Source: Escherichia coli (GTDB lineage: Bacteria; Pseudomonadota; Gammaproteobacteria; Enterobacterales; Enterobacteriaceae). From it: a stretch of DNA of 64,000 bases. Made by a program: the position numbers. Where the stretch lies: the NCBI RefSeq assembly GCF_046105845.1, contig NZ_CP151004.1; one strand, written 5' to 3'. Positions within the stretch are counted from its first letter, which is position 1. Each line of letters opens with the position of its first letter. Positions 17,301 through 20,300 of the stretch are shown one piece after another.

Positions 17301-20300
17301 TAATCTGATTCGGGCGCGGTTCTCGCGCCCGTTATTAACAGGTCATTTATCGGAAGACGCCTGCCACAGATTCAGCTCGCCATCGGCGATATGCTGATCA
17401 ATCTGCGCCAGCTCCTCGGTGCTAAATGTCAGATTATTCAGCGCCTGCACGTTCTCCTCAAGTTGCTCCGCGCGGCTGGCACCAATCAATACCGACGTCA
17501 CGCGATCATCTTTCAGCAACCAGCTTAACGCCATTTGCGCCATTGATTGTCCACGCTGCTGTGCCATTTCATTCAATAAGCGCAGGCTGTTGAGGTTGGC
17601 TTCGGTGAGCATTTTCGGCGTCAGACCACGAACTTTATTCCCTTCACGATGCATCCGTGAATCTTGCGGAATACCGTTGAGATATTTTCCGGTCAGCAAT
17701 CCCTGAGCCAGAGGAGTAAAGGCAATGCAGCCCACGCCGTTATTTTGCAGGGTATCCAGCAGGCCGCTTTTATCCACTCAGCGGTTCAGTAAATTGTAAG
17801 AAGGTTGATGAATTAACAGCGGAATTTTCCACTCGCGCAGCAACTCGACCATTTTTTGCGTCCGCTCTGGCGAGTAAGAGGAGATCCCGACATAAAGCGC
17901 CTTACCGCTTTGTACCGCATGAGCCAGCGCAGAGGCGGTTTCTTCCATCGGCGTATTTTCATCGACGCGATGAGAGTAAAAGATATCGACATACTCAAGC
18001 CCCATCCGCTTCAGGCTTTGGTCGAGGCTGGCGAGCAGGTATTTACGTGAGCCGCCAGAGCCGTACGGGCCGGGCCACATATCGTATCCGGCTTTGGTAG
18101 AGATAATCAGTTCATCGCGATAAGCGGCAAAATCCTCCCGAAGCAGGCGACCAAAGTTCTCTTCTGCGCTTCCTGGAGGCGGCCCGTAATTGTTGGCTAA
18201 ATCAAAGTGCGTAATGCCTAAATCAAACGCTTTGCGCAGGATCGCACGCTGTGATTCCAGTGCGTTAACGTGACCGAAATTGTGCCATAAACCGAGCGAT
18301 AACGCGGGCAGGCGTAAACCGCTTTTTCCGCAATAGCGGTATTGCATCTGCCCGTAACGTTCGGGATTCGCTAACCAGACCATGACCTCTCCTTTCCACT
18401 ATTCAATTTCGAAACAATGTTTTCAGTTTAGCGATTTACCAGGGGGGATCCCGTAGCATCGCTCACAGTGTGACGAAAAACTGGGCAAAAACACGTGCTT
18501 ATGCTTTGCTTAAAAAAACACCAATTGAGGAGTGCAATGATGCCGCGTCTGACCGCTAAAGATTTCCCACAAGAGTTGCTGGATTACTACGACTATTACG
18601 CTCACGGGAAAATCTCGAAACGTGAGTTCCTCAACCTTGCGGCGAAGTATGCGGTAGGCGGGATGACGGCATTAGCGTTGTTTGATTTGCTCAAGCCAAA
18701 TTATGCGCTGGCGACTCAGGTAGAGTTTACCGACCCGGAAATTGTTGCTGAGTACATCACGTATCCTTCGCCAAATGGTCACGGCGAGGTGCGGGGTTAT
18801 CTGGTGAAGCCCGCAAAGATGAGCGGCAAAACGCCAGCCGTAGTGGTGGTGCATGAGAATCGTGGACTGAATCCGTATATCGAAGATGTGGCACGGCGAG
18901 TGGCGAAGGCGGGGTATATCGCCCTGGCACCTGACGGCTTAAGTTCCGTTGGAGGTTATCCGGGTAATGATGATAAAGGTCGTGAGCTGCAACAGCAGGT
19001 TGATCCAACCAAACTGATGAATGATTTCTTTGCCGCAATTGAGTTTATGCAACGCTATCCGCTAGCGACAGGCAAAGTGGGTATTACCGGATTTTGCTAT
19101 GGCGGTGGCGTATCGAACGCGGCGGCTGTCGCGTATCCGGAACTGGCCTGCGCGGTGCCGTTTTATGGTCGTCAGGCACCCACTGCCGATGTGGCGAAGA
19201 TTGAAGCGCCTTTACTGCTGCACTACGCGGAACTGGATACCCGAATCAACGAGGGCTGGCCCGCTTACGAGGCGGCGTTGAAAGCCAATAATAAGGTCTA
19301 TGAGGCGTATATCTATCCGGGGGTTAATCACGGATTCCATAATGATTCCACGCCCCGTTATGACAAATCTGCCGCCGATCTTGCCTGGCAAAGGACGCTG
19401 AAATGGTTCGATAAATATCTCTCCTGATAGGTTTATCTCTTACGGGATTACGTCTTAAACAAGCATGAAAAAATAGCGTGCGCAAAAGTCGTTCTTTGCC
19501 TAAAATATCGCTATATATGGCAATATATAGCGAATGAGGTGAACGATGAATAACCATTTTGGTAAAGGCTTAATGGCGGGATTAAAAGCAACGCATGCCG
19601 ACAGTGCGGTTAATGTGACAAAATACTGTGCCGATTATAAACGCGGTTTTGTATTAGGCTACTCACACCGGATGTACGAAAAGACCGGAGATCGCCAGCT
19701 TAGCGCCTGGGAAGCGGGTATTCTGACGCGCCGCTATGGACTGGATAAAGAGATGGTAATGGATTTCTTTCGTGAGAATAATTCCTGTTCTACGTTGCGC
19801 TTTTTTATGGCCGGTTATCGCCTCGAAAATTGATCAAACATACGTATTATTTTGCTTTAATTAATTACACTAATGCTTCTTCCCTTCGTTTTAGCGCCCC
19901 GCCGCAGTATCATGATATCGATAACCATAATAAATGTGTGGTAAATGGCGCATCGATCGCATTATTGATTTTGCGATTGAGGCAAAATATATGCCAGGTC
20001 TTCGCAACGGAATAACTATAAATGACTGGAGATAACACCCTCATCCATTCTCACGGCATTAACCGTCGTGATTTCATGAAGCTTTGTGCAGCATTAGCCG
20101 CCACCATGGGGTTAAGTAGCAAAGCCGCTGCAGAGATGGCCGAATCGGTTACTAACCCGCAGCGTCCGCCAGTTATCTGGATTGGCGCGCAGGAGTGTAC
20201 CGGTTGTACTGAATCTCTGCTTCGTGCAACGCATCCAACGGTAGAAAACCTCGTGCTGGAGACTATCTCTCTGGAGTATCACGAAGTGCTTTCCGCCGCC

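What the first reader, a model, noticed from the sequence alone, without database searches (positions are those of the whole stretch)
17343..18383. In-frame TGA splits gpr (yghZ) into 201- and 144-codon halves
Seen in sequence: the two minus-strand ORFs are contiguous in one frame, separated only by TGA at 17778-17780, and flanking residues read NLLNR-stop-VDKSG. From memory the intact protein has Trp there (TGG), so this is a single G-to-A nonsense change. This would inactivate the L-glyceraldehyde-3-phosphate/methylglyoxal reductase unless it is a sequencing error or read through.
Basis: partly seen in the sequence, partly recalled or inferred. Interest (0 to 1): 0.55.

Follow-up and report, generated by a model that had tools for sequence, protein, structure and literature searches.

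The report
Recent nonsense mutation in gpr
One E. coli clone carries a single G-to-A change that turns tryptophan codon 202 of the dispensable detoxification gene gpr (yghZ) into a stop, which is a real but ordinary strain-specific gene loss.

Summary
On the minus strand, a 201-codon ORF (17778-18383) and a 144-codon ORF (17343-17777) are one reading frame interrupted only by TGA at 17778-17780. With Trp restored, the product is a full-length L-glyceraldehyde-3-phosphate reductase Gpr/YghZ (AKR14A1) that differs from the crystallised K-12 protein only by K323E.

A sister isolate of the same clone (GCA_044249515.1) matches the window over 8,885 nt except for this one base, where it has TGG. Five of seven contigs of the clone carry TGA, so a random sequencing error is unlikely.

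None of 5,426 complete E. coli genomes has a stop at codon 202, and gpr is the only broken gene among 55 checked in the window. I found no recoding signal: no SECIS-like fold, no Rfam hit and no tRNA gene. The GTG after the stop has no ribosome-binding site.

W202-to-stop recurs on other backgrounds in very large collections. A control shows similar counts for most other codons one mutation from a stop, so codon 202 is not a hotspot.

The truncated product keeps the catalytic tetrad but loses about 43% of the AKR barrel domain, so it is most likely inactive. A few percent UGA readthrough would insert Trp and rebuild the wild-type protein. Interest is low.

The parts
17778..18383 (-). N-terminal part of gpr (yghZ): 201 sense codons plus the premature TGA. 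It encodes residues 1-201, including the catalytic tetrad D61, Y66, K97, H138.
   Evidence: ORF and translation; NF007388, 807.7 bits with W restored; tetrad positions from PMC3290569 found in this sequence.
17778..17780 (-). Premature opal stop TGA replacing Trp-202 (TGG). The mutated base is window 17778, which is A on the gene strand and T on the + strand.
   Evidence: TGG in strains N3 and PCN033; W202 in K-12 PDB entries; the only difference from sister isolate L023 in 8,885 nt; no stop at this codon in 5,426 complete genomes.
17343..17777 (-). C-terminal remnant of gpr: codons 203-346 plus the natural stop. Gene finders call it as a separate 144-aa GTG-initiated ORF. It holds the FTPLAQG (222-228) and IGASRAEQLEEN (300-311) segments.
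   Evidence: Pfam PF00248 spans residues 28-332, so this piece carries the last ~43% of the domain; no Shine-Dalgarno before the GTG, duplex energy +0.4 kcal/mol.
18389..18394 (-). Shine-Dalgarno sequence AAGGAG of the native gpr start codon.
   Evidence: duplex with the anti-SD is -8.7 kcal/mol, 6 nt upstream of the ATG. Translation of the N-terminal fragment should therefore start normally.
17312..17330 (.). G+C-rich inverted repeat (GGGCGCG-agaac-CGCGCCC) between the convergent genes gpr and yqhA. It is a possible shared transcription end; its function is not shown.
   Evidence: Read directly. The consensus terminator scan did not call it because it lacks a T tract.

Best explanation
This is a genuine, very recent loss-of-function mutation. 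A single G-to-A transition changed Trp-202 (TGG) of gpr/yghZ to an opal stop (TGA) in one sub-lineage of an under-sampled E. coli clone.

Shown steps: translation starts at the normal ATG, which has a good ribosome-binding site, and the frame is closed after residue 201.

Inferred steps: the 201-residue product keeps the catalytic tetrad but lacks the last two beta/alpha units of the (alpha/beta)8 barrel and the C-terminal segments that hold NADPH in aldo-keto reductases. It should therefore be inactive and probably unstable. The 144-codon downstream piece is untranslated remnant sequence, not a gene.

Gpr is dispensable, and other aldehyde reductases (dkgA, yqhD, yghA) are intact in the same window, so the loss is most likely neutral or mildly deleterious. 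It sits in the clone by drift. The remnant differs from the intact gpr of the sister isolate only at the stop codon, which shows the mutation is young.

A small fraction of ribosomes may read UGA with Trp-tRNA(Trp), and that would regenerate exactly the wild-type protein. The allele may therefore be a severe hypomorph rather than a strict null.
For: - One frame, one stop.
- Identity as gpr: NF007388 807.7 bits, 1-346/346; 3N6Q/4AST/4AUB, one substitution, K323E; synteny.
- Ancestral codon is TGG. W202 is also conserved in solved homologues 9nz6, 5t79 and 3erp.
- The event is recent: sister isolate L023 differs by only this base in 8,885 nt.
- The allele is real: it is on 5 of 7 contigs of the clone. 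The six contigs listed individually come from SRR28309099, ERR13115083, SRR12605517, ERR4034258, GCA_018015415.1 and GCA_044249515.1. L003 and L022 are 100% identical to the window.
- The break is isolated: gpr is the only gene with an internal stop among 43 + 12 genes checked across the window, and there are no IS elements.
- What is lost: the Pfam AKR domain spans residues 28-332. The NADPH-specificity residues of the related AKR DepB (Lys-217, Arg-290, Gln-294, the last conserved in AKR14A1) lie in the C-terminal third (PMC9427786).
- The gene is dispensable and backed up: delta-yghZ strains of K-12 (Keio) and Nissle 1917 are viable (PMC12511951). Five E. coli AKRs act on glyoxal and methylglyoxal (PMC5297802).
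- Function: L-GAP reductase, kcat/KM 4.2e5 M-1 s-1 (PMC2948282).
- Readthrough: about 2% (37 C) to 4% (25 C) UGA readthrough in K-12 through Trp-tRNA(Trp) competing with RF2 (PMC10570021).
Against: - No raw-read pile-up, protein data or enzyme assay was available. Inactivity of the 201-aa fragment is inferred from the domain architecture, not shown.
- The contigs that carry TGA could in part derive from the same isolate sequenced or deposited more than once. I could list the samples but could not assign the allele to each one.
- The readthrough figures come from a K-12 reporter. K-12 is known (my own knowledge, not tested here) to have a weakened RF2, so readthrough in this wild lineage, in the context CGC-UGA-G, may be much lower.
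Confidence: 0.9

Rival explanations
1. Sequencing or assembly error: the genome really has TGG and the A is an artefact of this assembly.
For: The closest relative with an intact gene differs at only this base, which is also how a single-base error would look. No complete RefSeq E. coli genome carries the allele.
Against: The same TGA is on 5 of 7 contigs that carry the clone-specific YghA variant. These contigs come from several distinct run and assembly accessions. The Logan assembly of the raw reads of SRR28309099 is 100% identical to the window, TGA included. The change is a substitution, not a homopolymer-length error, and I see no Dam (GATC) or Dcm (CCWGG) site at the base (read).
Confidence: 0.03
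2. Programmed recoding: the UGA is decoded as selenocysteine or by efficient programmed readthrough, and the gene makes a full-length protein by design.
For: UGA is the leakiest stop codon in E. coli and is read by Trp-tRNA(Trp) at about 2-4% in K-12 reporters (PMC10570021). The inserted residue would be the ancestral one.
Against: - There is no Rfam match at E <= 1 on either strand of 17200-18600.
- The RNA downstream of the UGA folds no better than shuffles (z = -0.13).
- There is no tRNA gene in the window.
- The sister isolate and 5,423 other genomes have no stop here, so no recoding signal can have evolved around a days-to-years-old mutation.
Confidence: 0.02
3. Split enzyme: the ribosome terminates at TGA and re-initiates at the adjacent GTG. 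The 201-aa and 144-aa pieces then reassemble into an active barrel.
For: The stop and a GTG are directly adjacent (TGA-GTG), an arrangement that can allow termination-reinitiation. Halves of some TIM barrels are known to reassemble (my own knowledge, not tested here).
Against: There is no Shine-Dalgarno complementarity upstream of the GTG (+0.4 kcal/mol, against -8.7 for the native start). The GTG is simply the ancestral Val-203 codon and is present in all relatives. The cut does not fall at a designed domain boundary. No relative keeps the gene in two pieces as a conserved state. The 144-aa ORF is called behind many different lesions, several of them in error-ridden assemblies.
Confidence: 0.02
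4. Adaptive loss: inactivation of gpr is selected, with W202 as a recurrent target, for example to spare NADPH or alter aldehyde metabolism in the host.
For: W202-to-stop arose independently on at least five backgrounds: TGA in the window clone and in L006, and TAG in L004/L008, L005 and L007. Other gpr lesions, such as stops at codons 184 and 185, also occur.
Against: The control shows nothing special about codon 202. Exact N-terminal fragments that end before other codons one mutation from a stop are about as common (W185 49 contigs, Q193 31, W202 31, Y196 20, E184 18, Q176 4; K205, reachable only by a single transversion, 0). Fragments that end before codons which cannot mutate to a stop in one step are at background (0-2). 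No complete genome among 5,426 carries a stop at codon 202, and 5,393 keep gpr at >=80% coverage. The gene is therefore generally maintained.
Confidence: 0.06

Closest known systems
[quoted passage not shown]
   Same: Same locus and synteny (yghX - gpr - yqhA - yghA). The protein is 344/346 identical: the only differences are the stop at 202 and K323E. The catalytic tetrad D61/Y66/K97/H138 and the native ribosome-binding site are intact.
   Different: The reading frame is closed at codon 202 by TGA, so the last 145 residues are not made by normal translation.
Strain-specific nonsense pseudogenes of dispensable genes in E. coli (for example yghX, which is split in the L004, L008, L010 and L012 backgrounds seen here)
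   Same: A single-lesion disruption of a non-essential gene that is present in one lineage and intact in close relatives. The remnant differs from the intact gene of the sister isolate only at the lesion itself.
   Different: Nothing of substance. The lesion here is a transition at a Trp codon, whereas the other gpr lesions seen in public assemblies are stops at codons 184 or 185 or frameshifts in an A-run.
Leaky UGA codons read by Trp-tRNA(Trp) in E. coli (reporter and nudL readthrough, PMC10570021)
   Same: The same stop codon, with the same competing near-cognate tRNA expected. Uniquely convenient here, Trp is the ancestral residue, so any readthrough product is wild type.
   Different: No readthrough was measured for this context (CGC UGA GUG). 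There is no stimulatory structure and no evidence of conservation of the stop.

Membership tests
[quoted passage not shown] | Full-length sequence match above the curated cutoff | tested here: met
   807.7 bits against a cutoff of 448, residues 1-346 on profile 1-346 (with W restored at 202); 3N6Q E = 2.9e-235, one substitution.
[quoted passage not shown] | Conserved chromosomal position between yghX and yqhA/yghA | tested here: met
   collinear with strain N3, with the same neighbours in the same orientation.
[quoted passage not shown] | AKR catalytic tetrad Asp-61, Tyr-66, Lys-97, His-138 | tested here: met
   (residues present at these positions); the tetrad is as defined in PMC3290569.
[quoted passage not shown] | Uninterrupted 346-codon reading frame giving a complete (alpha/beta)8 barrel | tested here: not met
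   TGA at codon 202; the Pfam AKR domain spans 28-332, so about 43% of it lies after the stop. The locus is a gpr pseudogene (or severe hypomorph), not a functional member.
[quoted passage not shown] | NADPH-dependent reduction of L-GAP or methylglyoxal | not testable with these tools
   This needs an enzyme assay on extracts or on the purified product of this allele.
Nonsense pseudogene (recent loss of function) | Intact orthologue in the nearest relatives, with the lesion as the only difference | tested here: met
   L023 is identical over 8,885 nt except at window 17778; no stop at codon 202 in 5,426 complete genomes.
Nonsense pseudogene (recent loss of function) | The lesion is real, i.e. 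seen in independent data | tested here: met
   5 of 7 contigs of the clone, from several run and assembly accessions; 100% identity of a Logan raw-read assembly to the window. A per-read pile-up was not available.
Nonsense pseudogene (recent loss of function) | Absence of the full-length protein or its activity | not testable with these tools
   This needs proteomics, a Western blot or an enzyme assay.
Selenoprotein gene / programmed UGA recoding | SECIS or other stimulatory RNA structure immediately downstream of the UGA | tested here: not met
   no Rfam match at E <= 1. MFE -19.1 kcal/mol against a shuffle mean of -18.75, z = -0.13.
Selenoprotein gene / programmed UGA recoding | In-frame UGA conserved among orthologues | tested here: not met
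   TGG/Trp in relatives and in solved homologues. The TGA is confined to part of one clone, plus sporadic independent events.

The most novel reading that the evidence does not exclude
The allele may be a built-in hypomorph rather than a null. The stop is UGA and the ancestral residue is Trp, so near-cognate decoding by Trp-tRNA(Trp) would rebuild the exact wild-type enzyme at a percent-level, growth-condition-dependent dose. UGA readthrough in E. coli varies with temperature and cAMP (PMC10570021). The clone might therefore retain a low, noisy level of L-GAP detoxification that selection can see. A stronger version is that this down-tuning is itself advantageous.
Probability: 0.05. Interest if true: 0.3.

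Novelty: already known. Interest (0 to 1): 0.1.

Why it matters
It matters little beyond annotation. The two ORFs should be annotated as one gpr pseudogene, not as two aldo-keto reductase genes. Metabolic models of this clone should lack, or nearly lack, L-glyceraldehyde-3-phosphate reductase.

The isogenic natural pair (TGA clone and its TGG sister isolate, one SNP apart over 8.9 kb) could serve as a convenient natural test of Gpr's still poorly defined physiological role. It could also serve to measure UGA-to-Trp readthrough in a wild E. coli background. The control analysis is a useful caution: at the scale of today's sequence collections, independent recurrence of the same nonsense mutation is expected and is not evidence of selection.

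Tried and rejected
- **Source genome.** I looked for it in the 5,426 complete RefSeq E. coli genomes and found no exact match. The best identity was 99.6% for the gene and 98.1-98.6% for the 20-kb segments searched. An exact 45-mer across the TGA had no match in the GTDB species representatives either. I first suspected Shigella because of pseudogene-rich reductive evolution. I rejected that: the window has no IS element and no other broken gene among the 55 checked.
- **H214N as relaxed selection.** I first read this difference from strain N3, downstream of the stop, as a possible sign of relaxed selection. I rejected it because Asn-214 is the K-12 allele and is common.
- **The 144-aa lookup as a lineage marker.** It was not lineage-specific. 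Gene finders call the same ORF behind many unrelated upstream lesions, several in assemblies riddled with frameshifts. The neighbouring YghA variant worked instead.
- **Contigs L009 and L010.** They end exactly at codon 202 and looked like assembly breaks at a polymorphic site. Because they were selected by an exact 201-residue match, this is a selection effect. The control fragments show a contig-end background of 0-2 per position.
- **Mutational hotspot or selected target at W202.** Rejected by the control.
- **SECIS, Rfam, tRNA and re-initiation checks.** All negative.
- **Terminator scan.** The consensus scan found nothing after gpr. The G+C-rich hairpin visible in the sequence lacks a T tract, so its role is left open.
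- **Assigning the allele to each sample.** I could not do this, because the look-up tool merges places that have the same neighbours.

Full report
**1. The observation**

ATG at 18383 opens a frame of 201 sense codons that ends in TGA at 17780-17778. The next codon is GTG, and the same frame continues for 144 codons to the natural stop at 17345-17343. The residues around the break are SYNLLNR*VDKSG.

With Trp placed at position 202, the 346-residue product matches NCBIfam NF007388 (L-glyceraldehyde 3-phosphate reductase) end to end at 807.7 bits, against a cutoff of 448. It also matches the crystallised E. coli K-12 YghZ/AKR14A1 (PDB 3N6Q, 4AST, 4AUB) over all 346 residues with one substitution, K323E. 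The two ORFs are therefore one gpr gene with one internal stop.

**2. The ancestral codon and the age of the change**

gpr is present in 5,423 of 5,426 complete E. coli genomes. In the two nearest, N3 and PCN033, codon 202 is TGG, and K-12 has Trp-202. Trp is also conserved at this position in the solved homologues 9nz6, 5t79 and 3erp.

The decisive comparison came from a look-up with the window's YghA variant, which is specific to this lineage (6 amino-acid differences from N3). It is found on only seven contigs. Five have gpr split 201 + 144, and two have an intact 346-codon gpr.

The intact representative, L023 (GCA_044249515.1), is identical to the window at 8,884 of 8,885 positions. The single difference is window 17778, which is G in L023 and A in the window on the gene strand. 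The event is therefore a single G-to-A transition that happened within a clone.

The Asn-214 that differs from strain N3 is the K-12 allele, not decay. The downstream remnant differs from the intact gene of the sister isolate at nothing but the stop codon.

**3. Real mutation or sequencing error**

L003/L022, a Logan assembly made directly from the reads of SRR28309099, is 100% identical to the window over 6,606 and 8,885 nt, TGA included.

The clone is represented by SRR28309099, ERR13115083, SRR12605517 and ERR4034258, and by GCA_018015415.1 and GCA_044249515.1. A seventh contig, longer than 1 Mb, was read but not listed; it may be the 4.74-Mb NCBI contig seen. Five of the seven contigs carry TGA.

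The change is a substitution, not a homopolymer-length error. A random error in one assembly is therefore very unlikely. What I could not do is inspect read pile-ups or assign the allele to every sample.

**4. Context**

The window is collinear with E. coli strain N3 at 98.5% and 97.9% identity, apart from an IS621 that only N3 has.

I checked 43 N3 genes and 12 genes of isolate AF40 for their state in the window. gpr is the only one with an internal stop. Two genes that are frameshifted in N3, yqhG and an lptF paralogue, are intact here. This is not a decaying, Shigella-like genome segment.

The lineage is poorly sampled. No complete RefSeq genome exceeds 98.6% identity over the first 20-kb segment searched or 98.1% over the second, and an exact 45-mer across the TGA had no match among the GTDB species representatives.

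gpr is convergent with yqhA and divergent from yghX, so no gene lies directly behind it in the same transcription unit, and a polar effect is not expected. This is an inference from gene order. A G+C-rich hairpin follows the stop, but the terminator scan did not call it.

**5. Consequence for the protein**

The native start has a good Shine-Dalgarno sequence (AAGGAG, -8.7 kcal/mol), so the N-terminal 201 residues should be synthesised. They contain the catalytic tetrad Asp-61, Tyr-66, Lys-97 and His-138 (PMC3290569; positions checked).

The Pfam aldo-keto reductase domain runs from residue 28 to 332. The stop therefore removes about 43% of the barrel, including the FTPLAQG (222-228) and IGASRAEQLEEN (300-311) segments.

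I infer, but have not shown, that the fragment cannot bind cofactor or fold into a closed barrel and is inactive.

**6. Recoding and split-gene alternatives**

- There is no Rfam family match on either strand at E <= 1.
- The 76 nt from just upstream of the UGA onward fold no better than shuffled sequence (z = -0.13).
- There is no tRNA gene in the window.
- The stop is absent from the sister isolate and from every complete genome.

Selenocysteine insertion and programmed readthrough are therefore not supported.

The GTG after the stop is simply the ancestral Val-203 codon, and it has no ribosome-binding site (+0.4 kcal/mol). A two-piece enzyme is unlikely.

Unprogrammed leakiness remains possible. 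In K-12, UGA reporters are read through at about 2% (37 C) to 4% (25 C) by Trp-tRNA(Trp) in competition with RF2 (PMC10570021). Trp is the ancestral residue here, so any such product would be wild-type Gpr. The level in this strain and context is unknown.

**7. Recurrence**

The exact 201-residue product occurs on about 31 contigs in a collection of roughly 15 billion proteins. The DNA shows independent origins:

- TGA in the window clone, and on a background that differs at 37 sites (L006).
- TAG on three other backgrounds (L004/L008, L005, L007).

This looked interesting, so I ran a control. I looked up exact N-terminal fragments that end before other codons.

| Fragment ends before | One-step routes to a stop | Contigs |
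|---|---|---|
| W185 | two transitions | 49 |
| Q193 | one transition | 31 |
| W202 | two transitions | 31 |
| Y196 | two transversions | 20 |
| E184 | one transversion | 18 |
| Q176 | one transition | 4 |
| K205 | one transversion | 0 |
| N200 | none | 2 |
| R201 | none | 1 |
| V203 | none | 1 |
| D204 | none | 0 |

W202-to-stop is therefore as frequent as most other accessible nonsense changes in this gene. The recurrence reflects the size of the collection and the tolerance of E. coli for losing gpr. It does not indicate a hotspot or targeted selection. In the curated set of 5,426 complete genomes, neither TGA nor TAG occurs at codon 202.

**8. Function and expected phenotype**

YghZ/Gpr reduces L-glyceraldehyde 3-phosphate (kcat/KM 4.2e5 M-1 s-1) and may detoxify L-GAP formed by racemisation (PMC2948282). 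It is also one of five E. coli aldo-keto reductases active on glyoxal and methylglyoxal (PMC5297802; PMC5270733).

Knock-outs are viable in K-12 (Keio collection) and in Nissle 1917 (PMC12511951). dkgA, yqhD and yghA are intact in this same window. The likely phenotype is at most a mild loss of aldehyde-detoxifying capacity.

**9. Verdict**

The feature is a genuine, very recent, clone-restricted nonsense pseudogene (or severe hypomorph) of a well-characterised, dispensable gene. It is ordinary in kind and of low general interest. Its practical value is correct annotation, plus a naturally isogenic TGA/TGG pair for anyone studying Gpr physiology or UGA readthrough in wild E. coli.

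Noticed in passing
L004, L005, L006, L007, L008 (gpr at 3001-4041 in each locus; codon 202 at 3604-3606): Independent Trp-202 nonsense alleles sit on clearly different synonymous backgrounds: TAG in L004/L008, L005 and L007, and TGA in L006 (19-37 differences from the window gene). The L004 type has 11 further similar places and a split yghX, so it is itself a small clade.
   Followed up: yes
L012, L013, L020 (stops at gpr codons 184/185); L015-L019, L021 (1-2 nt indels near gpr nt 406-547, several at the A-run around nt 526-531): Public assemblies contain other gpr lesions. Some sit in assemblies where nearly every gene is fragmented (L015-L017), so these are probably long-read homopolymer errors rather than real pseudogenes.
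   Followed up: partly
window 18540-19427 (+), yghX: yghX is intact here (295 codons) and in strain N3, but it is split into 254 + 47 codons in the L004, L008, L010 and L012 backgrounds. From memory, K-12 also carries it as a pseudogene. It is a second, older example of sporadic gene loss right next to gpr.
   Followed up: partly
window 33192-43004: A roughly 10-kb cluster that, by the annotation of strain N3, encodes a serine palmitoyltransferase (spt), an acyl carrier protein, a fatty acyl-AMP ligase, an epimerase/dehydratase, a lipopolysaccharide biosynthesis protein and paralogues of lptF/lptG. All are intact in the window. The combination suggests synthesis and export of a sphingolipid-like or unusual acylated envelope lipid in E. 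coli. From memory, K-12 has only remnants of it (yghQ-yghO).
   Followed up: no
window about 26704 (between hybG and yghU): Strain N3 carries an IS621 (IS110 family) insertion here that the window lacks. The window has no IS element across the 45.7 kb aligned to N3.
   Followed up: partly
window 7937-8863 (yqhG) and 36772-37842 (lptF paralogue): Both genes are annotated as frameshifted pseudogenes in the closest complete genome (N3) but are intact in the window, each differing by a single 1-nt gap.
   Followed up: partly
whole window: No complete RefSeq E. coli genome among 5,426 is more than about 98.6% identical to the two 20-kb segments searched (10000-30000 and 44000-64000). Only about seven contigs in the large collections carry the lineage's YghA variant. 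The window comes from a rarely sampled E. coli lineage.
   Followed up: partly
window 54483-59033 (sslE) and 60056-60466 (gspS2): Each gene differs from isolate AF40 by 9 nt of in-frame gaps, with lower identity (about 97%) than the surrounding genes. Both remain open.
   Followed up: no
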